Below, in pieces: positions 19,432 through 27,602 of a stretch of DNA of 32,000 bases (position 1 is its first letter; every line of letters starts with the position of its first letter). The notes beneath the pieces were generated by a model. The model made no database searches, had not been told where the DNA came from, and saw nothing but the letters and a program-made list of their open reading frames with translations. This DNA comes from Sulfolobus acidocaldarius DSM 639 (GTDB taxonomy: Archaea; Thermoproteota; Thermoprotei_A; Sulfolobales; Sulfolobaceae). The stretch is taken from the NCBI RefSeq assembly GCF_000012285.1, contig NC_007181.1, positions 480,001 through 512,000 on the forward strand. Reading direction: 5' to 3'. Both the position numbers and the translations under genes were made by a program.

Positions 19432-19701
19432 TTAGTTGCGGGGGTGCCCGAGCAGGTCAAAGGGGGCGGACTTAAGATCCGCTGGCGTAGGCCTGCGTGG
19501 GTTCAAATCCCACCCCCCGCACTGTGGGGGAGTACTCCCCACATCCTCATTTCGAATGTAAAACTCTACTATCTTGTCTAAGGGACCAACGTAATGTTCC
19601 TTTACCTTACCGTCTCGACCCCTCTCTATGGAGTAAACATAATACTTATTCCCTCTCTGACGTATTTTATATTGCCCAGCAACGAAAGTCCTATAACCCA
19701 T
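19432..19701 (-). pseudogene. orphan N-terminal fragment, int(N), of an SSV-type partitioning integrase reading into tRNA-Leu
   Basis: The translation YKIRQRGNKYYVYSIERGRDGKVKEHYVGPLDKIVEFYI closely parallels the N-terminus of the fusellovirus SSV1 integrase as I recall it ([31 protein letters not shown]). The ORF then runs antisense through the tRNA-Leu 3' half (GGWDLNPRRP is the T-arm complement), as expected for an att site inside int. No catalytic C-terminal part is present. Confidence 0.8.
19438..19521 (+). tRNA. tRNA-Leu (anticodon UAA)
   Basis: Hand-folded cloverleaf. Acceptor GCGGGGG/CCCCCGC, anticodon stem GCGGA/TCCGC with loop CTTAAGA, a long variable arm, T-arm TGGG-TTCAAAT-CCCA, and discriminator A. 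No intron and no encoded CCA. Confidence 0.93.
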
Positions 19702-20054: not shown

Positions 20055-20099
<45 letters not shown>

Positions 20100-21779: not shown

Positions 21780-22556
21780 ATGTTAAAGTCAAATAACACT
21801 CTGCTCAAAGATTTAAAAGTTTATCACCATCTTTCTCTAGAATATGTTAAGAAGAATTACAAGGAAGAGGAAGTCAGAGAGCTGTTGATGAGTGGGCTGG
21901 CAAAGGTTGAGAAGCTCAGTGCTCATATTGATGGGCCCTATAGAGACTACCTAGTCTATCGGGCCATAGATGAGATTGACGTTAATACGATAAAGAAGTT
22001 CTTAGGGTTAGTGTCAGAAGATTTTGGGAATGACGTATATTGGGCTTTCAGAATCAAGTTGTATGTCTACATCTGGGGCGAGTCTGAAAATCTCTACGTC
22101 AAGAAGTCGAAGTTTGACGATATCGTTGAGTACATCTTAGAACATTATTTAGCTGAGGTCTACTTCTCGTTCTGTCCACACTTTGAGCCTAACCACAGGG
22201 CGGAAAGTGTAGTAGAATGCCAGTGGCTCTTCTATGATATCGATAACGTGAACGAAACGGTGCTCAGGAACCTCTCTAGACTCTCGCCTAGACCAGTTGT
22301 GATCCTCTATTCGGGGCATGGTGCACACTTATATTACAAGTTGTCCCGGAAAGTACGCACAGAAGAATACAAGAAGATCTGGCAAAGATTCGCTAAGCGT
22401 TACTTGACACAATATCTAAATAAGATAGATAAAACGAAAAGCGGACCTTACGTTTTAGCTAGACTCCCGGGAACTCTCAATTGCAAAGACCCTGAAAATC
22501 CCGTAAGGACTATCGCAATTTTTCAAGAAGGTGATTTGATTGAAGTTAGAATTTAA
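21780..22556 (+). CDS. archaeo-eukaryotic primase superfamily primase-polymerase (prim-pol) domain protein
   Basis: AEP motif I WLFYDIDN (DxD), motif II YSGHGAHLYY (sGxGxH) and motif III ARLPGTLNCK. About 258 aa, the size of the isolated prim-pol domain of pRN1-type RepA. Confidence 0.85.
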   Translation: MLKSNNTLLKDLKVYHHLSLEYVKKNYKEEEVRELLMSGLAKVEKLSAHIDGPYRDYLVYRAIDEIDVNTIKKFLGLVSEDFGNDVYWAFRIKLYVYIWGESENLYVKKSKFDDIVEYILEHYLAEVYFSFCPHFEPNHRAESVVECQWLFYDIDNVNETVLRNLSRLSPRPVVILYSGHGAHLYYKLSRKVRTEEYKKIWQRFAKRYLTQYLNKIDKTKSGPYVLARLPGTLNCKDPENPVRTIAIFQEGDLIEVRI

Positions 22557-24141
22557 CGAACTAGCTGAGTTTCTTAACCAGAAGTTTAAGGAAAAGTTCT
22601 CAGAGTGGACTGGGAAATGTAAGCAGTATAGCAGCTATGTAGTCTGCAATTGCCCGTTACACCCACCTGATAAACGCCCATCTTTAGTCCTAACGAAACT
22701 TGGAAAGGCCTTTGATAATCACGCTCAGAAGTATGGCGATAAGGTCACGTACAGTATCGAGGAGTTTTTCAAAAAATTAGGGATAGAAGGGCCTGAGTTT
22801 CAAGGTGATATGAAAGATAAGAAAGAGAAAGAGAAGGCTATCGTGAAAGATGAGATAAAAGTAGAAACTGCAGAAGAAGTAGAAGAAGATGAGGCCAAAG
22901 AGGACATAAAGGAAATGATATTAGACCTATTTGTGGTCTCAACAATAACCATAGGGAAAGAGGCTTACTTCTTTGTAAAAGACGATAGAGGATATTGGTA
23001 TTACGATGAAAAGACGAGTGAGGCAATACTGAGGACTAAGATAATAAACTTCCTAGATATGTATAACGTTAAGACTTCAGACTACCAAATCAACACAATA
23101 TTAAACGCTATAAGGGGAAAGACTGATGTTGATGAGTACTCTTTCGATATTGTGAATAGTGAAGGGGAGTGTACCGTTGTAACGCCCTTTAAGAATGGGC
23201 TATACTGCGACGGTAAGCTGATAAATAACTTTAGGGGCATTTGGACTTATCACCTACCCTATGAGTATAGAGAAATAAGCGGAAACGAAGTTGAACAGTT
23301 GTTGAACAAGTTAAGCGGTTACTATCCTAATATTGATGATGTATTAAACATTATGGCCTTACCTTTCATCAATAGGGTTCAAAGGAAGGTGGTCATTCTA
23401 TATGGCCCACCTAGAGGCGGAAAGGACTATCTAATTGAAAAGATACTTATGAGTTTCGTTAAAATCACATCTCTAAGGCCAGAGGTGGTTACGGGGGATT
23501 CTAGGTTCGAGCTGTGTGGCCTTTGGAACTTTAGAGCAGTCTACATAGGTGAAGTGGAGTATATTGGAAGTAAGTTGGCTACATTCCTAGATAATTTAAG
23601 TGGCGGTGTTCTAATGAAGGCTGAGTGTAAGAACAAGGCTCCAATAGAGATGGTCTTTAAAGGGCCAGTCTACTTGAGCGCTAATAGGCTGATAATAGAG
23701 GATTTGCCTTCAGGCTTTTACGATAGGGCTGAGGTTGTAGTCTTTAAGAATAGGTTTAATGCGCCTAAGTATATCCTAGATGAAAGCGAGAAAGAAGTGC
23801 TGATAAATATCCTTATTAGAAGAGCTCAGGCCCTATCTGAGAAGGAAGAGATCCATGTAGGGGTCAATTTCGACAAATTTATGGAAAGTGGTAGTAAATG
23901 TGAAGAGGTAATTGGCCTAATCAAAAGCGGTGATAAAATACTCTCTTTGAGGCAAATTCGTGATTGGTTAGAAACCACTTGTGCTAAGTTTAACCTACCA
24001 CTGCTAATGAGCGATAAAGAATTAGGGAAAAGGTTAGAGGAGTTAAGAGTCCATAAAGAGAGGGGGAATTTGTATACTGTTGACTTACCTTCTGATGAAG
24101 AGGTAAGAGAACTCTTTTCTGATGTAGAGAAAGAGTCGTGA
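22540..24141 (+). CDS. replicative helicase subunit: N-terminal CxC...H Zn-motif, acidic linker, superfamily-3 (D5/P4-like) NTPase
   Basis: CNCPLHPPDKRPSLVL resembles CHC2-type primase zinc fingers. Walker A is LYGPPRGGKDYL, Walker B is AVYIGEVE, and SF3 motif C is VYLSANR. TTG start at 22540 preceded by GGTGAT (22530-22535). Overlaps the prim-pol ORF by 17 nt. Confidence 0.85.
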   Translation: MKLEFNELAEFLNQKFKEKFSEWTGKCKQYSSYVVCNCPLHPPDKRPSLVLTKLGKAFDNHAQKYGDKVTYSIEEFFKKLGIEGPEFQGDMKDKKEKEKAIVKDEIKVETAEEVEEDEAKEDIKEMILDLFVVSTITIGKEAYFFVKDDRGYWYYDEKTSEAILRTKIINFLDMYNVKTSDYQINTILNAIRGKTDVDEYSFDIVNSEGECTVVTPFKNGLYCDGKLINNFRGIWTYHLPYEYREISGNEVEQLLNKLSGYYPNIDDVLNIMALPFINRVQRKVVILYGPPRGGKDYLIEKILMSFVKITSLRPEVVTGDSRFELCGLWNFRAVYIGEVEYIGSKLATFLDNLSGGVLMKAECKNKAPIEMVFKGPVYLSANRLIIEDLPSGFYDRAEVVVFKNRFNAPKYILDESEKEVLINILIRRAQALSEKEEIHVGVNFDKFMESGSKCEEVIGLIKSGDKILSLRQIRDWLETTCAKFNLPLLMSDKELGKRLEELRVHKERGNLYTVDLPSDEEVRELFSDVEKES

Positions 24142-24192
24142 GAAAAATTCTATTTTCATCTTCTCTTTCTGTTTTTATCACAAAAACGCAAG

Positions 24193-24288
24193 CTGAAGGG
24201 TAGCCTGAAGGGTACCCCGTTTTTGGAAAAGAAACAAAAAGTGGCTTTCTTTAAAAAAATAACCCCCATCCTTCAGATCACCCTTCAG
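24193..24288. repeat. composite inverted repeat: 2x CTGAAGGGTA (12-bp phasing) facing 2x (A)CCCTTCAG / CCTTCAG (12-bp phasing)
   Basis: CTGAAGGGTA occurs at 24193-24202 and 24205-24214. CCTTCAG lies at 24270-24276 and ACCCTTCAG at 24280-24288. The spacer is A/T-rich. Confidence 0.75.
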
Positions 24289-24442
24289 GTCATTTAATTT
24301 CAAGAAAGGGTATAAAATTTGTATTTCAAAAAATTCAATTTTCACTCAGCTGAAACTGACAAAAATTCAAAAGCTGAGGCCTCATAAACTTTTGGTTTAT
24401 CTAATAGCTAAACTTTTTGGTTTGCGTGTCTGCGGGGATGCC

Positions 24443-24460
24443 TTTGTACAGCCGTACAAA
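24443..24460. repeat. 18-bp near-perfect palindrome TTTGTACAGCCGTACAAA, embedded in a CGGGG...CCCCG outer stem (24432-24467)
   Basis: Arms TTTGTAC/GTACAAA with central AGCC. It shares the 12-mer GTACAGCNGTAC with the palindrome at 25601-25620. Confidence 0.8.
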
Positions 24461-24480
24461 ACCCCCGTTTAACCATACCG

Positions 24481-24546
24481 CATGGCGAAATTAATTCACC
24501 ATAAACCTTCATGGCGAATAAAAAATCCTTATAAGTTCATGGCTAA
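24481..24546 (+). promoter_or_regulatory. three direct CATGGC(G/T)AA repeats at 28-29-bp spacing immediately upstream of the serine recombinase gene
   Basis: Copies at 24481-24489, 24510-24518 and 24538-24546. The recombinase GTG start is at 24559. Confidence 0.6.
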
Positions 24547-24558
24547 TTAATTTCTTCT

Positions 24559-25209
24559 GTGAAGGCGCTGGGTTACGCTAGAGTGAGCGTGGAAGACGAG
24601 AGGATTGAGAACCAAATCGCTGAAATTAGCGCTTATGCGAAGAATAACGGGATTGAGCTGATGAAGATATTCACAGACGTGGGAGTCTCTGGCTCAAAGC
24701 CCGCTTTAGAGCGTGAAGGATTCAAATCGCTAATGCAGGCTAGCGAGTTATTAGACGTTAAGACTATAGTGATTTATGACTTGACTAGGCTAGGTCGAGA
24801 TCTATTCGATCTAGTAACCACTTATAAAACGTTGTTAGAAAAAGGATACAATGTTCTATTCGTAAAGCACCCTGAGTTAAACGTCACCCAGAGCTCGCCG
24901 ATTGGTGAAGCCCTCAGAAAGGCGCTGTTAGTACTCTTGGGAGCTGTAGCTGAGCTGGAGAGAGCTTTCATCAGAGAGAGGACCGTAAGCGGTCTAGCGA
25001 GGGCTAAGGCTCAAGGCGTGAAGCTGGGCAGAAAACCCGCAGACATCCCAGTGGAGCTGGTTAAACGTTACTTGAAGATGGGAGCTACTAAGAAGTTCAT
25101 CTACGCTAAATTAGTTGAGGACGGCTTTCTGCGTTATAAAGAGAAGGGTGTAGAGCGCGTCATGTCGTACGACTGGTTCTTAAAGAGAATGAAGAAGGAA
25201 GGACTCTAG
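24559..25209 (+). CDS. serine recombinase (resolvase/invertase family) with C-terminal HTH
   Basis: N-terminus KALGYARVSVEDE (catalytic Ser in the YARVS context), DVGVSGSK, IVIYDLTRLGRD, ELERAFIRERTVSGLARAKAQGVKLGRKP (E-helix), then a basic C-terminal domain. GTG start. Confidence 0.9.
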   Translation: MKALGYARVSVEDERIENQIAEISAYAKNNGIELMKIFTDVGVSGSKPALEREGFKSLMQASELLDVKTIVIYDLTRLGRDLFDLVTTYKTLLEKGYNVLFVKHPELNVTQSSPIGEALRKALLVLLGAVAELERAFIRERTVSGLARAKAQGVKLGRKPADIPVELVKRYLKMGATKKFIYAKLVEDGFLRYKEKGVERVMSYDWFLKRMKKEGL

Positions 25210-25246
25210 TCATTACTGGCTTAATTTATCTTTTGAGCATGCCTTT

Positions 25247-25558
25247 TTATTCTCTCTTTTGCGTGTTAACTTTTAGGTTAACACGTGCAATCTCTTCATC
25301 AATCTCTCTAAGCACTCTCTCAAAGACACCTCTAAGCTTCAACAACAACTCTAATTTGTCCTTATCAGATAATAATGAAAATAAACCTATGATCGTGTCA
25401 TCTGAAGCATGTATTTCGCCTTTAGACATCTTGTATAGGGAGATACGCGATATCCCCAAACTTTCAGCGATTTCAGTAACAGGGAGCTTGGATCTCTGCA
25501 GAACAAAGTTAACTACGAACTCCCTTTCATCAGGGCTTAGGTGCTTAACCCACTCCAT
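25247..25558 (-). CDS. small helix-turn-helix DNA-binding protein
   Basis: 103-aa ORF. LPVTEIAESLGISRISLYKMSKGE is a classic HTH, and the C-terminal half is predicted helical/coiled. The opposite-strand ORF (25233-25565) is Ser/Leu-rich low complexity and was rejected. Confidence 0.75.
   Translation of the reverse strand: MEWVKHLSPDEREFVVNFVLQRSKLPVTEIAESLGISRISLYKMSKGEIHASDDTIIGLFSLLSDKDKLELLLKLRGVFERVLREIDEEIARVNLKVNTQKRE
25262..25285. promoter_or_regulatory. inverted repeat CGTGTTAAC-N6-GTTAACACG at the convergent junction of the recombinase and HTH genes
   Basis: Perfect 9-bp arms with a 6-nt spacer, lying within the last codons of the HTH gene. Either a hairpin terminator or a second copy of the GTTAAC-N6-GTTAAC operator. 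Confidence 0.55.
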
Positions 25559-25560
25559 GT

Positions 25561-25578
25561 GTTAACTTTAAAGTTAAC
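25561..25578. promoter_or_regulatory. perfect 18-bp palindrome GTTAACTTTAAAGTTAAC between the TATA-like box and start codon of the HTH gene (candidate auto-operator)
   Basis: It starts 3 nt upstream of the ATG at 25558. TTTATTAT (minus-strand reading of 25582-25590) sits just beyond it. Confidence 0.6.
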
Positions 25579-25600
25579 CCGATAATAAACTTTGAGTCAT

Positions 25601-25620
25601 CTCAGTACAGCTGTACTGAG
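25601..25620. repeat. perfect 20-bp palindrome CTCAGTACAGCTGTACTGAG
   Basis: Self-complementary over all 20 nt. It shares the GTACAGCNGTAC core and the central GC with 24443-24460. Confidence 0.85.
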
Positions 25621-25870
25621 TTCCCCTGAAAGTCGACGCTCTAATATAAACGAGGTGCAAATCGCCTTGGTCAATTTATTTGCTTTTTTGCAACGAGGCT
25701 GGACTCCCCTTGGTTTATGACCACATAGAATTCAGAATGGTGAAAAATATAACATATTAGGGCGGGCATTAGATTGTTCTGAGCGCTAGCGCTTTTGTCT
25801 CCATAAACTCCACGTTCCAAAACGCCGTGATTAAAAAACGCTTAAATGCTCTAAAGCAGAGCTTTAAAAC

Positions 25871-26143
25871 ATGATGGAGTTGAAGCATAAGAAAGAGGAG
25901 TATGCGAAGGAATTAATAAATCTGCTCAGCAGGTTCATGAGCGGTAAGATAAGCTACCCTGTGCTTTCCCTAAGGCTAACAGGCATAGAGGCAAAGGTCC
26001 ATGAGTCAGGCTTTGAGGACTTAGTGAGGCTAATACATGAGCTCCTCAAGGCGATTAGGGAAGCAGAGAGAAAGGGTTCAAATGAAATTAACAAGTTAGT
26101 TAGACCATACGTGGAGAAACTTGAGAGTATTGCAAAGGGTTAG
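25871..26143 (+). CDS. small helical hypothetical protein
   Basis: 90-aa ORF convergent with the integrase (the stops overlap by 4 nt), with element-like codon usage. No recognisable motif. Confidence 0.5.
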   Translation: MMELKHKKEEYAKELINLLSRFMSGKISYPVLSLRLTGIEAKVHESGFEDLVRLIHELLKAIREAERKGSNEINKLVRPYVEKLESIAKG

Positions 26144-27417
26144 AGTATTCTAGGAGCGTGTTTCTCATAAGCGTATCTTAGCTCCTCTTCTGATATAACA
26201 AAGTAGTGCTCCTGCAGGATCCTAAACTGCTGTGGAGGAACTCTACCCTGCAGTATATTCACGACCATTGGTGAAACACCCTGCTTTATCATGTAAGAGG
26301 CAAAGAAGCTCCTCAAGTCGTATAGCCTGAACTCACGACCTAGTACTCTCTTCATAGCATTCTTTATGTCGAAACGCAGTGAATCATCACGGAATGGGAA
26401 GAACTTGTTGAACCATAATGTAACGTCAATTCCTTGCTCAGGGTTAGCCTCTGCCAACTTTTTGACGTTCTCTAAATATCGTGAAACGAAGTCCTCACGA
26501 TAAGGTAAATACACCTCTTTTAACCACTTAGCAGTGTTTTCGTGAAGGAATGTTATGTAAGCCCTCTTAGTCTCGTTCTCCTTCATTAGCTTAATCACGC
26601 GGTGTTCTAGGTCAACCTGTTCCACAGTGAGCGATAAGACTTCACCAGTCCTTAGGCCAGTCTCTGCTAGGACTAAGAAGAATGCCTTAGCACCAATATC
26701 CTGTATATTATTAAATATTCTCTTTAGGATATCAATCGACAAGTTCATGGGCCTATATTTTGTCTTTCCCCTGGGTGTCTTAAATGAGTCGTAGAGTAGT
26801 CTAGCTAACGCAGGGTCTCTTAACTTAACTACTTCCTTAATGAATAATTTTAGTGCTTTGACAGTATGTTCAGCCTTTCCATTACTCTCAGCCATCAGGT
26901 CTAGAATGTATTCCTTTAGGCCTTCAGGCGTTAAAGTGTTTCCTAGGTCAGCTAAAGCGCGCTTCAAGTAGTTTAGCCTATCCTTTGCAGTCTTAGTAGA
27001 TTTGGTCTCTTTCAGCAGTTTTTCGAAAAGCTGAATATCCTCCTGTGTGACTATATACTCCTTTGCAGTCTCTTTTATTAAATCGCCAAAGTACTTATGC
27101 AAAAAGAATAGGAAGATATTCCTAAAGCTAGGATCCTTTGAGGCTTTTACCATTACCCTTAAGATATCTGAAGGGGTAACATCTGAATAATCAATGCCAT
27201 GGACAATTTTAACAACTTCATCAACTGGTAACGCTTTCATTACTTCATTAACGATCTCATCAGGAGGCTCAATCTCTTTACCCCTCTCATCATAGCCCCT
27301 AACGTATAAGTACAACTGCTTCTTACTCCTATTAGTAATTTCTGTGAGCTTAGGATAGCCTAGAAGTTCAACAGCCCTCTTGAGAAGTTCTCTTCTCTGT
27401 TCCTTAGAGAGTTCCAT
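26140..27417 (-). CDS. int: tyrosine recombinase / integrase (archaeal, non-partitioning arrangement)
   Basis: 425-aa ORF. Box I is LAETGLRTGEVLSL, and box II plus the nucleophile is LYDLRSFFASYMIKQG...LQGRVPPQQFRILQEHY. This parallels the SSV1 integrase C-terminus as I recall it (RKFVASKM...IQGRKPTRVLTQHY). The gene is intact, and its start lies 107 bp from attR. Confidence 0.9.
   Translation of the reverse strand: MELSKEQRRELLKRAVELLGYPKLTEITNRSKKQLYLYVRGYDERGKEIEPPDEIVNEVMKALPVDEVVKIVHGIDYSDVTPSDILRVMVKASKDPSFRNIFLFFLHKYFGDLIKETAKEYIVTQEDIQLFEKLLKETKSTKTAKDRLNYLKRALADLGNTLTPEGLKEYILDLMAESNGKAEHTVKALKLFIKEVVKLRDPALARLLYDSFKTPRGKTKYRPMNLSIDILKRIFNNIQDIGAKAFFLVLAETGLRTGEVLSLTVEQVDLEHRVIKLMKENETKRAYITFLHENTAKWLKEVYLPYREDFVSRYLENVKKLAEANPEQGIDVTLWFNKFFPFRDDSLRFDIKNAMKRVLGREFRLYDLRSFFASYMIKQGVSPMVVNILQGRVPPQQFRILQEHYFVISEEELRYAYEKHAPRIL

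Positions 27418-27523: not shown

Positions 27524-27602
<79 letters not shown>

What the first reader, a model, noticed from the sequence alone, without database searches (positions are those of the whole stretch)
24432..25620. Serine recombinase cassette bracketed by two related GC-centred palindromes (possible resolution, excision or inversion module)
The element carries a canonical resolvase/invertase-family serine recombinase (YARVS nucleophile context, E-helix, C-terminal HTH) in addition to its tyrosine integrase. Serine recombinases of this small resolvase/invertase type are, to my knowledge, uncommon in Sulfolobales extrachromosomal elements. The recombinase gene and the neighbouring HTH gene are flanked by TTTGTACAGCCGTACAAA (24443-24460) and CTCAGTACAGCTGTACTGAG (25601-25620). 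Both are palindromes sharing the 12-mer GTACAGCNGTAC, with a central GC dinucleotide, and their centres are 1,159 bp apart. Each is followed on the right by a C-run. The geometry recalls hix/gix or res crossover sites: about 12-bp half-site pairs around a 2-bp crossover, with the recombinase gene lying inside the segment as hin does. Because the central GC is itself symmetric, either deletion/resolution or inversion is conceivable. A DNA-inversion or self-excising cassette inside an archaeal integrative plasmid would be new.
Basis: partly seen in the sequence, partly recalled or inferred. Interest (0 to 1): 0.72.

Follow-up and report, generated by a model that had tools for sequence, protein, structure and literature searches.

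The report
Archaeal resolvase module with neighbouring operator-like palindromes
A small integrated plasmid in Sulfolobus acidocaldarius carries a genuine serine resolvase, but its likely DNA sites are a four-part array just upstream of the gene, and the two GTAC palindromes look more like repressor-binding sites than ends of a flipping or self-excising cassette.

Summary
A1 (24443-24460, imperfect) and A2 (25601-25620, perfect 20-mer) share GTACAGCNGTAC, which occurs nowhere else in the 32 kb. The gene between them is an intact small serine recombinase.

The window is S. acidocaldarius chromosome. It carries a 7.47-kb plasmid integrated in tRNA-Val.

Eighty homologous loci show the recombinase's own probable substrate. 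It is a res-like array of four inverted-repeat subsites (S1-S4, 24453-24559). Half-sites co-vary between clades (here CATGG[CT]GAA) but spacing is fixed. S3 carries the TATA box and S4 covers the start codon.

A1/A2 half-sites do not resemble these. Their 8-bp GTAC spacing is tighter than any recombinase subsite seen in the homologous loci. A2 lies just upstream of the promoter of an XRE-like repressor gene that no homologous locus carries. That protein's only real relative sits behind a cluster of three TGTACA hexamers in an element without a serine recombinase. All eight S. acidocaldarius loci fetched are identical here and show no inversion or deletion.

One caveat remains. A1 overlaps S1, and analogous palindromes (CCAC-N4-GTGG) abut S1 in other clades, sometimes with a second copy downstream. 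A recombination role is therefore not excluded.

Verdict: resolvase/res module plus operator-type palindromes; new member of a known kind.

The parts
20055..20099 (.). Left attachment repeat (45 bp) of the 7,470-bp integrated plasmid-like element
   Evidence: Exact 45-bp direct repeat of 27525-27569. GC is about 41% inside versus about 34% outside.
24443..24460 (.). Palindrome A1, TTTGTAC-AGCC-GTACAAA (imperfect). Its right arm overlaps the left half of res-like subsite S1.
   Evidence: The closest homolog, L229, has CACAGCTGTG 17 nt left of its S1.
24453..24476 (+). S1, the distal subsite of the res-like array: CGTACAAA-ACCCCCGT-TTAACCAT. It is the probable crossover site. It has a G+C-rich centre, and the right half is a CATGG-type half-site in reverse.
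   Evidence: It has the same inner geometry as L025 S1 (ATGTAGAA-AGGGGGGT-TTCTACAT) and shares CCCGTTTA with L033 and L057 S1. Homology blocks between related loci end at the left edge of S1. Assigning crossover to S1 is an inference.
24481..24502 (+). S2 subsite, CATGGCGAA-ATTAA-TTCACCAT
   Evidence: It lies 57 bp from S4, as in the homologous arrays.
24510..24535 (+). S3 subsite: CATGGCGAA plus a degenerate right half that carries the TATA box TTATAAG (24529-24535) of the recombinase promoter
   Evidence: An equivalent TATAAG or CATAAA element occupies the same place in homologs. The promoter assignment is inferred from sequence.
24538..24559 (+). S4 subsite, CATGGCTAA-TTAA-TTTCTTCTG, lying between the TATA box and the GTG start. 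It is the likely autoregulatory site.
24559..25209 (+). Small serine recombinase (216 aa), resolvase/invertase type
   Evidence: PF00239 E=3e-35. It is 100% identical to the S. acidocaldarius 'recombinase family protein'. Invariant residues include Y6, R8, S10, R77, R80, D81, E134 and R135. The best solved relatives are gamma-delta/Tn3 resolvase and Gin. The model has pLDDT 84.7.
25263..25285 (.). Palindrome B1 (GTGTTAAC-TTTTAG-GTTAACAC). It lies 54 bp after the recombinase stop codon and inside the last codons of the HTH gene.
   Evidence: The hairpin z-score is -5.6.
25247..25558 (-). 103-aa XRE-like HTH regulator with a long C-terminal helix, confined to S. acidocaldarius
   Evidence: Model pLDDT is 92.9. 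Fold matches are to XRE/C-protein regulators. It matches PHROG 16553 'transcriptional repressor', E=4e-6. HTH_3 is found in 4 of 5 family members. The protein is absent from all 81 recombinase homolog loci.
25559..25581 (.). Palindrome B2 (core GTTAACTTTAAAGTTAAC, 25561-25578), between the HTH gene's TATA box (TTTATTAT, 25582-25589, minus strand) and its ATG. It is the probable auto-repression operator.
   Evidence: Five of the 14 GTTAAC hexamers in the window lie in this 316-bp stretch. Its function is inferred.
25601..25620 (.). Palindrome A2, CTCAGTACAG-CTGTACTGAG (perfect). It lies 11 bp upstream of the HTH gene's TATA box, in the divergent intergenic region between the HTH and RIP/P131-like genes.
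26140..27417 (-). Tyrosine integrase of the non-partitioning (pNOB8-like) kind, belonging to the element
   Evidence: PF00589. The same family lies near the recombinase in 32 of 82 loci, counting the window.
27525..27569 (.). Right attachment repeat, inside tRNA-Val(TAC) 27527-27601(-)

Best explanation
The region holds two separate things.

**1. A res/resolvase-type module**
- The serine recombinase binds as dimers to an array of four inverted-repeat subsites directly upstream of its gene (S1 24453-24476, S2, S3, S4 up to 24559).
- It exchanges strands at the G+C-centred distal subsite S1 when two copies of the array are present in direct repeat. This resolves multimers of the episomal plasmid form.
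- It represses its own promoter, because S3 carries the TATA box and S4 covers the start site.

**2. A small XRE-like repressor gene with its own operators**
- B2 overlaps the gene's start region and B1 lies at its 3' end.
- The A-type palindromes A1 and A2 are best read as operator-type sites for a dimeric DNA-binding regulator, most likely this XRE-like protein.
- A2 lies just upstream of the regulator's promoter.
- A1 overlaps the left half of S1, so occupancy of A1 would compete with the recombinase at the crossover subsite and could gate resolution or recombinase expression.

**What is shown and what is inferred**
- Shown: the anatomy, the family-wide conservation of array geometry with co-varying half-sites, and the absence of rearranged forms in assemblies.
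- Inferred: who binds what, S1 as the crossover point, and the regulatory logic.
For: **The enzyme and its context**
- It is an intact resolvase-family enzyme.
- It lies in a 7.47-kb element integrated in tRNA-Val, which also has a tyrosine integrase and primase/helicase genes.

**The subsite array**
- Across 80 metagenome loci plus L229 and L232, the 140 bp upstream of the gene holds 3-4 inverted-repeat subsites.
- Half-sites differ by clade: ATGTAGAA, CCTGGAAC, CATTGTGA, GTTGGAA, and CATGG[CT]GAA in the window.
- Spacing is constant: S1 to S2 is 37-40 bp, S2 to S3 is 29 bp, and S3 to S4 is 28-29 bp.
- Half-sites cluster only there, with no second cluster elsewhere in any locus.
- In the window the three CATGG[CT]GAA copies sit at 24481, 24510 and 24538.
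- S1 is a 17+2+17 perfect palindrome in L023 and a 10+2+10 palindrome (9 of 10 pairs) in L024.
- Colinear homology between related loci ends at S1's left edge: -91 to -96 in one clade and -121 to -140 in another.

**A1/A2 differ from recombinase sites**
- GTACAG differs from the recombinase half-site.
- The GTAC-GTAC spacing of 8 bp compares with 13-18 bp between half-site cores in S-sites.
- A2 has no recombinase half-site cluster nearby.

**The HTH protein**
- It has an XRE/C-protein-like fold with a long C-terminal helix that could mediate dimerisation, and it matches a PHROG repressor family.
- Its only clear homolog, P0122 (40-42% identity), lies in a different Sulfolobales element without any serine recombinase.
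- In that element all three TGTACA hexamers of 10.3 kb fall within 29 bp, at the promoter of the operon that contains P0122. GTGTACTC and GTTAAC lie upstream of the gene itself.

**Other**
- No inverted or deleted form was found in S. acidocaldarius assemblies.
- No Rfam match was found.
Against: - No binding data exist.
- The link between the HTH family and GTAC motifs rests on one homolog. There the GTAC spacing is 11-12 bp, not 8 bp.
- The B-type palindromes are at least as good a candidate for this protein's operators. That would leave A1/A2 without an assigned binder.
- A1's left arm starts within 1-2 bp of where the S1 forward half-site is predicted from the other clades (37-40 bp upstream of S2). 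The S1 assigned here lies about 10 bp closer to S2 than in the homologs.
- Palindromes abutting S1 are common in other clades. CCAC-N4-GTGG occurs in 26 of about 76 loci, about 40-fold enriched.
- The distances from these palindromes to S1 (13, 22-23, 33.5-35 bp) look helically phased. Several clades also carry second copies downstream of the gene.
- This suggests the palindrome class belongs to the recombination locus rather than to a lineage-specific regulator.
- S. acidocaldarius strains are nearly clonal, so identical assemblies are weak evidence against rare rearrangement.
Confidence: 0.5

Rival explanations
1. A1 and A2 are crossover sites of the serine recombinase. Recombination between them inverts or deletes the 1,159-bp segment that carries the res-like array, the recombinase gene and the HTH gene.
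For: - The two palindromes share a 12-mer with a central GC and bracket the gene.
- A1 sits at the distal end of the recombinase-binding array, where a crossover site is expected, and its left edge matches the predicted S1 position.
- Other clades have a palindrome next to S1 with further copies 0.7-2.2 kb downstream: L027 at +689 and +1078, and L038/L064/L068/L081/L090 with an identical 14-mer at about +1750.
- In L064 versus L090 the colinear block runs from that palindrome to its downstream copy.
- In L086 and L094 the recombinase module is inverted relative to conserved flanks.
Against: - A-type half-sites are unrelated to the half-sites that co-vary with the recombinase.
- The sites are 18-20 bp with 8-bp GTAC spacing. 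From general knowledge, known crossover sites are about 26-28 bp.
- Most homologous loci (58 of 64 tested) show no recurring palindrome, a rate no higher than for random 12-mers.
- L086 carries no palindrome at its inversion junctions, and its flanks are more similar (85-88%) than the recombinase gene (78%). This points to module replacement rather than site-specific inversion.
- Within the CATTGTGA clade the palindrome is present in some members and absent in others, and homology starts at S1.
- Gene order and orientation are the same in every S. acidocaldarius place listed, and the segment is identical in all eight loci fetched.
- With a symmetric GC centre, deletion would destroy the recombinase gene. 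Inversion would swap no promoter.
Confidence: 0.13
2. A1 belongs to a family-wide class of boundary palindromes that flank the res array (CCAC-N4-GTGG in other clades, GTAC-N4-GTAC here). These would be bound by the recombinase in a second mode, or by a conserved host factor, as an accessory or architectural element of the recombination complex. A2 would be an extra copy that recruits the same factor to the HTH promoter.
For: - The palindromes are strongly enriched directly upstream of S1 in clades with different S half-sites and different neighbouring genes.
- The closest homolog, L229, has CACAGCTGTG with the same ACAGCTGT core as A2.
- The palindrome-to-S1 distances look roughly helically phased (my counts).
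Against: - The palindrome is absent in several close relatives, such as L038 and L025/L020, whose arrays are otherwise intact.
- Its distance to S1 is variable.
- No conserved partner protein is encoded in the module.
- In L027 the copies sit between the TATA box and the ATG of neighbouring genes, as ordinary operators do.
Confidence: 0.2
3. The A1/A2 resemblance has no shared function. It would be two unrelated short palindromes, for example a degenerate S1 half-site remnant and a promoter-proximal operator or hairpin, that happen to share GTAC-AGC-N-GTAC.
For: - The similarity is confined to 12 bp, and generic local alignment is no better than shuffles.
- A1 is imperfect.
- The window has 11 perfect-arm palindromes (arms of 8 bp or more), against 4.2 expected, so palindromes are common here.
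- A 14-mer of A2 is found 115 times in viral contigs by chance.
Against: - GTAC-N4-GTAC occurs only twice in 32 kb, and both copies have AGC in the spacer and lie 1.16 kb apart. No shuffle of 100 matched this for the 12-mer.
- Both copies are intergenic and next to promoters.
Confidence: 0.12

Closest known systems
Tn3/gamma-delta resolvase with its res site (also plasmid multimer-resolution systems such as RP4 ParA/res, Sin and beta recombinase)
   Same: - The enzyme is a small serine recombinase with an N-terminal catalytic domain, an E-helix and a C-terminal DNA-binding domain.
- These are the best solved relatives (E about 6e-14; fold matches).
- There are several dimer-binding inverted-repeat subsites with differing internal spacers, packed into about 110-130 bp directly upstream of the recombinase gene.
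- The array overlaps the gene's own promoter.
- The distal subsite is the most symmetric one, and homology breakpoints fall there.
   Different: - There are four subsites rather than three or two.
- Half-sites end in GAA, and S1 has a G+C-rich centre.
- The promoter is archaeal, with the TATA box in S3.
- The C-terminal domain has an added beta-hairpin and gives no Pfam HTH_7 hit.
- The carrier is an integrative plasmid with a tyrosine integrase, not a replicative transposon.
- No biochemical data exist for any archaeal member (review PMC8371274).
Putative resolvases of the Thermococcales integrative plasmids pT26-2 (t26-31p) and pAMT11
   Same: - They are archaeal plasmids that integrate through a tyrosine integrase and also encode a PF00239 resolvase.
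- They are the best matches among deposited plasmids, full length at about 33% identity.
- They are annotated as putative resolvases in PMC2926602.
   Different: - They are distant in sequence and come from the Euryarchaeota.
- The passages of PMC2926602 read here describe no site architecture for them.
- The window protein belongs to a separate, large clade in hot-spring Thermoproteota and DPANN. The top 120 hits of the homology search are 57-72% identical.
Hin/Gin/Cin/Pin DNA invertases with hix/gix sites
   Same: - They are small serine recombinases.
- In the Hin system the gene lies inside a segment bounded by two related palindromic sites.
- Gin is among the solved relatives (E=4e-13).
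   Different: - The A sites are 18-20 bp and do not carry the half-site that the recombinase family's own array uses.
- No Fis/enhancer equivalent is known in archaea.
- No alternative orientation was found in assemblies.
- No promoter or coding switch would result from inversion.
XRE-family / restriction-modification controller (C) protein operators (for the 103-aa protein and the A/B palindromes)
   Same: - It is a small all-helical HTH protein whose best structural matches are XRE regulators and C.Esp1396I.
- Its palindromic sites lie immediately upstream of, and over, its own promoter.
- From general knowledge, C-boxes are 4-bp half-sites separated by 4 bp, the same geometry as GTAC-N4-GTAC.
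   Different: - The sequence signal is very weak (HTH_3 E=0.058 for the window protein).
- The protein has an additional long C-terminal helix.
- The promoter context is archaeal.
- There are two unrelated palindrome types, A and B, and the operator assignment is untested.

Membership tests
Small serine recombinase (resolvase/invertase, PF00239) | Resolvase catalytic domain scoring above the curated threshold | tested here: met
   PF00239 scores 121.8 bits against a cut-off of 23.3, E=3e-35, over residues 3-154. PHROG 125 'DNA invertase' gives E=2e-38.
Small serine recombinase (resolvase/invertase, PF00239) | Nucleophilic serine in a Y-x-R-V-S context, plus conserved Arg/Asp/Glu residues of the active site and E-helix | tested here: met
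   GYARVS with S10 is present. Y6, R8, S10, D40, R77, R80, D81, E134 and R135 are invariant in 34 family members. The alignment to gamma-delta resolvase covers residues 4-167 of that protein.
Small serine recombinase (resolvase/invertase, PF00239) | Domain order: catalytic domain, then E-helix, then C-terminal HTH DNA-binding domain | tested here: met
   The model shows the E-helix at 114-151, a low-confidence linker, then helices 165-173 and 178-188, a beta-hairpin at 192-201 and a helix at 204-213. The first two helices align with the gamma-delta HTH. There is no Pfam HTH_7 hit, so the domain is a variant.
res/resolvase multimer- or cointegrate-resolution system | A multi-subsite site next to the gene: several inverted-repeat dimer sites sharing one half-site motif, with different internal spacers | tested here: met
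   In the window, CATGG[CT]GAA occurs at 24481, 24510 and 24538, with reverse half-sites at 24469 and 24495. The same geometry with clade-specific half-sites is seen in the homologous loci.
res/resolvase multimer- or cointegrate-resolution system | The site overlaps the recombinase promoter (autoregulation) | tested here: inconclusive
   A TATA-like TTATAAG lies in S3 and S4 abuts the GTG start. An equivalent arrangement is seen in homologs. No transcription start data were available.
res/resolvase multimer- or cointegrate-resolution system | The recombinase binds the subsites and exchanges strands at one of them between two directly repeated sites | not testable with these tools
   Only indirect evidence exists: homology blocks end at the left edge of S1, and S1 is a 2-bp-centred perfect palindrome in L023.
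DNA invertase system (Hin/Gin type) | Two crossover sites carrying the recombinase's own half-site motif, flanking the segment | tested here: not met
   A1 and A2 half-sites (GTACAG) differ from the array half-site. The sites are 18-20 bp long with an 8-bp core spacing.
DNA invertase system (Hin/Gin type) | Both orientations of the segment occur in populations | tested here: not met
   Of 23 S. acidocaldarius contigs read, all places listed have the same gene order and orientation, and the eight loci fetched have an identical 24400-25650 segment.
DNA invertase system (Hin/Gin type) | Homologous cassettes keep equivalent flanking sites | tested here: inconclusive
   No homolog has GTAC-N4-GTAC near the gene. 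Recurring palindromes occur in only 6 of 64 loci, about the rate for random 12-mers. However, L027, the L064 clade and L229 do show related palindromes on both sides of the gene.
IS607-type serine transposase | N-terminal MerR-like HTH before the catalytic domain, usually with a TnpB gene | tested here: not met
   The catalytic domain starts at residue 3 and the DNA-binding domain is C-terminal. No TnpB-like ORF lies in the element.
XRE/Cro-C1-type HTH regulator (103-aa protein) | HTH_3-type fold and sequence signal | tested here: inconclusive
   HTH_3 is below threshold for the window protein (E=0.058) but is matched by 4 of the 5 aligned family members scanned, the window protein included (best E=3e-7). 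The model has pLDDT 92.9. The top fold hits are XRE regulators with probability 1.0 but E about 0.04. The PHROG repressor family gives E=4e-6.

The most novel reading that the evidence does not exclude
The palindromes that abut the res-like array (A1 here, CCAC-N4-GTGG elsewhere) and their downstream copies (A2 here) would be genuine recombination sites. That would make the resolvase module of thermophilic archaeal integrative elements a self-contained invertible or mobile cassette, a new use of a small serine recombinase in archaea. In some clades it would remodel the C-terminus of a large convergent gene.
Probability: 0.13. Interest if true: 0.78.

Novelty: new member of a known kind. Interest (0 to 1): 0.42.

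Why it matters
Resolvase-type serine recombinases of archaea have not been studied biochemically. The review PMC8371274 says archaeal serine recombinases 'were never fully investigated'.

This analysis gives a concrete, testable site map for a large family of them. The map has four subsites with clade-specific half-sites and fixed spacing, a probable crossover subsite, and built-in autoregulation. One member sits in S. acidocaldarius, a widely used laboratory model archaeon.

It also shows that a tyrosine integrase for integration paired with a serine resolvase, presumably for multimer resolution, is common in integrative elements of hot-spring archaea.

The palindromes themselves matter mainly as a possible control point. 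A regulator site overlapping the crossover subsite would be a simple way to gate resolution.

Tried and rejected
1. **Rearranged forms.** I looked for inverted or deleted configurations among public S. acidocaldarius assemblies and found none. Raw reads could not be searched.
2. **An empty-site relative of the element.** The helicase has no homolog in PLSDB or in the 5.8-billion-protein collection, so this test was impossible.
3. **The HTH gene as a partner.** I searched recombinase homolog loci for the HTH gene (tblastn) and found none. It is therefore not a conserved partner of the recombinase.
4. **The A2 14-mer in viral contigs**. This gave 115 chance-level hits and was uninformative.
5. 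**Recombinase relatives in IMG/VR**. Only distant ones (28-36% identity) turned up.
6. **Half-site counting.** Counting the best 8-mer with one mismatch does not separate upstream regions from control windows. The conserved positions carry the signal, not the counts.
7. **Recurrence of upstream palindromes as a family-wide rule.** It held in 6 of 64 loci, about the random 12-mer rate, so I rejected it as a general feature and kept it for specific clades.
8. **L086/L094 as a simple site-specific inversion.** No palindrome lies at the junctions, the intervening DNA differs, and the flanks are more similar than the recombinase gene. I rejected this reading.
9. **An RNA element.** There is no Rfam hit. 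The hairpin z-scores are modest for A1 (-2.0) and better for A2 (-3.8). A2 lies in a divergent promoter region where no transcript is expected.
10. **Literature.** Searches found no description of this element or its recombinase.
11. **Distant HTH homologs.** P0126, P0128 and P0129 gave no informative upstream motifs.


Full report
**What the window is**

The recombinase ORF (24559-25209) is 100% identical to a Sulfolobus acidocaldarius 'recombinase family protein' found on many contigs. A 45-bp exact direct repeat (20055-20099 and 27525-27569) coincides with the 3' part of tRNA-Val(TAC) at 27527-27601(-). It delimits a 7,470-bp element with higher G+C, about 41% against 34%.

The element encodes the following genes:
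- a 333-aa protein of unknown function and a 126-aa protein
- a primase-polymerase-like protein of 258 aa
- a DUF5906/primase-helicase-like protein of 533 aa
- the serine recombinase
- a convergent 103-aa HTH protein
- a RIP/P131-like protein
- a tyrosine integrase of the non-partitioning kind, next to the att site

It is therefore a small integrated plasmid. The same att sequence occurs next to the integrase of plasmid pRT2 of S. tengchongensis.

**Checking the observation**

A2 is a perfect 20-mer and the longest perfect palindrome in the window. A1 has 7-bp arms around AGCC.

GTACAGCNGTAC and GTAC-N4-GTAC occur only at these two places in 32 kb, against about 0.15 expected. The resemblance does not extend beyond the 12-mer. 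I take the pairing as probably non-random but only moderately supported.

A second palindrome pair was missed. B1 (25263-25285) and B2 (25559-25581), GTGTTAAC-N6-GTTAAC, are 20/23 identical and bracket the HTH gene. Five of the window's 14 GTTAAC hexamers lie in that 316-bp stretch.

**The recombinase**

- Pfam Resolvase gives E=3e-35.
- The catalytic Ser10 lies in GYARVS, and the usual Arg/Asp/Glu residues are invariant in 34 relatives.
- The best solved relatives are gamma-delta and Tn3 resolvase and Gin, and fold matches agree.
- The model (pLDDT 84.7) shows the catalytic domain, the E-helix at 114-151, a linker, and a C-terminal helix-turn-helix followed by a beta-hairpin and a further helix. 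This is a variant of the usual three-helix domain and gives no Pfam HTH_7 hit.
- It is not an IS607-type enzyme.
- The homology search returned 1,549 proteins at E<=1e-5. The 120 best are 57-72% identical and come from hot-spring metagenomes and MAGs of Desulfurococcaceae, Thermofilaceae, Vulcanisaeta, Sulfolobales, Nanopusillaceae and Aenigmatarchaeota.
- Among deposited plasmids the nearest are the putative resolvases of Thermococcus pT26-2 and pAMT11, at 33% identity. Both are already described as integrative plasmids with a resolvase.
- A review states that archaeal serine recombinases have not been investigated.

**The recombinase's own sites**

I fetched 80 metagenome loci and one MAG locus encoding homologs, plus L229 and L232. 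In every clade examined, the about 140 bp upstream of the gene holds three to four inverted-repeat subsites.

The half-site differs between clades: ATGTAGAA, CCTGGAAC, CATTGTGA, GTTGGAA. The geometry is constant. Forward half-sites of S1 and S2 are 37-40 bp apart, S2 to S3 is 29 bp, and S3 to S4 is 28-29 bp. The right half of S3 coincides with a TATA-like box. S4 lies between that box and the start codon. Half-sites cluster only there, and no locus has a second cluster.

In the window the motif is CATGG[CT]GAA at 24481, 24510 and 24538 (spacing 29 and 28 bp), with reverse copies at 24469 and 24495. The TATA box TTATAAG lies at 24529-24535, and S4 reaches the GTG start.

The distal subsite S1 has a G+C-rich centre in all clades. 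It is a perfect 17+2+17 palindrome in L023 and a 10+2+10 palindrome (9 of 10 pairs) in L024. The window counterpart is CGTACAAA-ACCCCCGT-TTAACCAT (24453-24476). It has the same inner geometry as L025 S1 and shares CCCGTTTA with L033 and L057.

Colinear homology between related loci ends at the left edge of S1, at -91 to -96 in the CATTGTGA clade and -121 to -140 in the CCTGGAAC clade. This is what crossover at S1 between different elements would leave behind.

This is the architecture of a res site with its resolvase. Co-variation of half-sites under fixed geometry is good evidence that the recombinase binds there. Binding and the crossover point remain inferences.

**Where A1 and A2 fit**

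A1's right arm forms the poorly matching left half of S1. A1's left arm begins within 1-2 bp of where an S1 forward half-site would be predicted from S2. The S1 assigned above lies about 10 bp closer to S2 than in homologs. A1 is therefore physically entangled with the crossover subsite.

Its half-site (GTACAG) does not resemble CATGG[CT]GAA. The two GTAC cores are 8 bp apart, against 13-18 bp between half-site cores in any S subsite.

A2 has no recombinase half-site cluster nearby. It lies 11 bp upstream of the HTH gene's TATA box (TTTATTAT, 25582-25589, minus strand). B2 lies between that TATA box and the ATG.

**The HTH protein**

- It is absent from all recombinase homolog loci.
- It has only one clear relative, P0122, at 40-42% identity.
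- The model (pLDDT 92.9) matches XRE/C-protein regulators.
- It matches a PHROG repressor family.
- P0122 lies in an integrated element of another Sulfolobales genome that has no serine recombinase.
- In that element all three TGTACA hexamers of 10.3 kb fall within 29 bp, at the promoter of the operon containing P0122. GTGTACTC and GTTAAC lie 60-77 bp upstream of P0122 itself.
- P0122 is the only protein the two elements share apart from fragments of an integrase pseudogene in L098.

This ties GTAC-type motifs to the HTH family rather than to the recombinase. The tie rests on one case, and the spacing there differs (11-12 bp).

**Evidence that keeps the recombination reading alive**

- Many homologous modules have a palindrome just left of S1. 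CCAC-N4-GTGG occurs in 26 of about 76 loci, at 1.74 per kb there against 0.04 per kb elsewhere.
- The closest homolog, L229, has CACAGCTGTG with the same ACAGCTGT core as A2. L027 has TTCCACAAATTTGTGGAA.
- My counts of palindrome-centre to S1-centre distance are 13 (window), 22-23, 26, 33.5, 34.5 and 35 bp. This is roughly helically phased.
- Further copies lie downstream of the gene in L027 (+689, +1078, and a variant near +1415). There they sit between the TATA box and the ATG of neighbouring genes.
- In L038/L064/L068/L081/L090 a copy lies at about +1750, inside a large convergent ORF. L057 also has downstream copies.
- L229 has CCACACATGTGTGG about 35 nt after the stop codon.
- The L064/L090 colinear block runs from the upstream palindrome to the downstream copy.
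- In L086 and L094 the recombinase module is inverted relative to conserved flanks.

**Evidence against that reading**

- Recurrence of the upstream palindrome was found in only 6 of 64 loci, about the rate for random 12-mers.
- The palindrome is missing in close relatives with intact arrays.
- L086 has no palindrome at its junctions. Its flanks are more similar (85-88%) than the recombinase gene (78%), which points to module replacement.
- In 23 S. acidocaldarius contigs, gene order and orientation are the same in every listed place. The eight loci fetched are identical over 24400-25650. The species is nearly clonal, so this is weak.
- With a symmetric GC centre, A1 x A2 deletion would remove the recombinase gene. 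Inversion would swap no promoter.

**Conclusion**

The best-supported reading (confidence about 0.5 for the whole, higher for the res-array part) has two components:
- The region is a res/resolvase-type module for resolving plasmid multimers. It is autoregulated through S3 and S4, with S1 as the crossover.
- Next to it lies an XRE-like repressor gene. A1 and A2 are operator-type sites, most likely for that repressor, and A1 is placed so that its occupancy competes with the recombinase at S1.

Rivals are:
- a family-wide accessory or boundary element of the recombination locus (about 0.2)
- coincidence (about 0.12)

No Rfam family matches the region.

**Novelty**

This is a new member of a known kind. 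The useful product is a testable site map for an unstudied archaeal resolvase family. A second product is the finding that a tyrosine integrase of the window's family lies near the serine resolvase in 32 of 82 loci.

Noticed in passing
window 25263-25285 and 25559-25581: A second palindrome pair, B1 and B2 (GTGTTAAC-N6-GTTAAC, 20/23 identical), brackets the 103-aa HTH gene. B2 lies between its TATA box and ATG. B1 forms a strong hairpin (z=-5.6) 54 bp after the recombinase stop codon. Five of the 14 GTTAAC hexamers in the window lie here.
   Followed up: partly
window 24142-24440: The 420-bp gap between the helicase-like gene and the recombinase is rich in repeats. It has four CTGAAGG motifs as two inverted pairs (24193-24211 and 24270-24288), another inverted repeat (24165-24188 and 24218-24241), and two direct TAAACTTTTGGTTT repeats (24385, 24409). 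This may be the plasmid's replication origin.
   Followed up: no
window 19432-19701 (-), overlapping tRNA-Leu 19438-19522: An 89-aa ORF matches the N-terminal part of SSV1-type integrase (PF07935, E=1e-20) and overlaps a tRNA gene. This is the signature of a partitioned SSV-type integrase left by another integration event, about 350 bp left of the element studied here.
   Followed up: partly
L010-L017, genes corresponding to window 21780-22556: The primase-polymerase-like gene of the element is called at different lengths in different S. acidocaldarius assemblies (258, 226, 222, 212, 181 aa). Neighbouring chromosomal genes such as Fe-ADH are also split in several drafts. The cause may be frameshifts or assembly errors.
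   Followed up: no
L086 and L094 versus L064, L087, L090, L081: In two metagenome loci the recombinase module lies in the opposite orientation relative to conserved flanking genes (integrase, a 318-aa ORF, a large 470-660-aa ORF). The flanks are 85-88% identical, whereas the recombinase genes are only 78% identical. This suggests the module is exchanged between elements.
   Followed up: partly
L038, L064, L068, L081, L090 at about +1750 from the recombinase start: A 14-mer (CCCACTGGAGTGGG), identical in L090 or complementary in L064 and L081 to the palindrome beside S1, lies inside a large convergent ORF. L038 carries only this downstream copy. It sits at the junction between a variable middle part and a conserved C-terminal part of that ORF. 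L064 has extra copies at +1171 and +1847.
   Followed up: partly
L018 1432-1451 and 2522-2541: In L018, one of the closest metagenome homologs (68% identity), an exact 20-nt stretch comprising the TATA-like box and subsite S4 (CTATAGTAAGAAATTTCTTC) recurs in inverted orientation. The second copy is about 370 bp downstream of the recombinase gene. The pair brackets the recombinase and an HTH_17-like gene.
   Followed up: partly
L098 4542-4570: Three TGTACA hexamers, the only ones in 10.3 kb, lie within 29 bp. They are immediately upstream of the first gene of the operon that contains the only clear homolog of the window's HTH protein. That element has an SSV-type integrase and no serine recombinase.
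   Followed up: partly
window 22540-24141 and 25247-25558: The helicase-like replication protein and the HTH protein have essentially no relatives outside S. acidocaldarius in a 5.8-billion-protein collection. The replication module of this integrated plasmid is therefore an orphan.
   Followed up: yes
window 24559-25209, residues 165-213: The recombinase's C-terminal DNA-binding domain carries a conserved beta-hairpin (FLRYKEKGVERVMS) between the second helix and a final, nearly invariant helix (SYDxFLKRLK). This differs from the three-helix domain of the Tn3 and Hin enzymes.
   Followed up: partly
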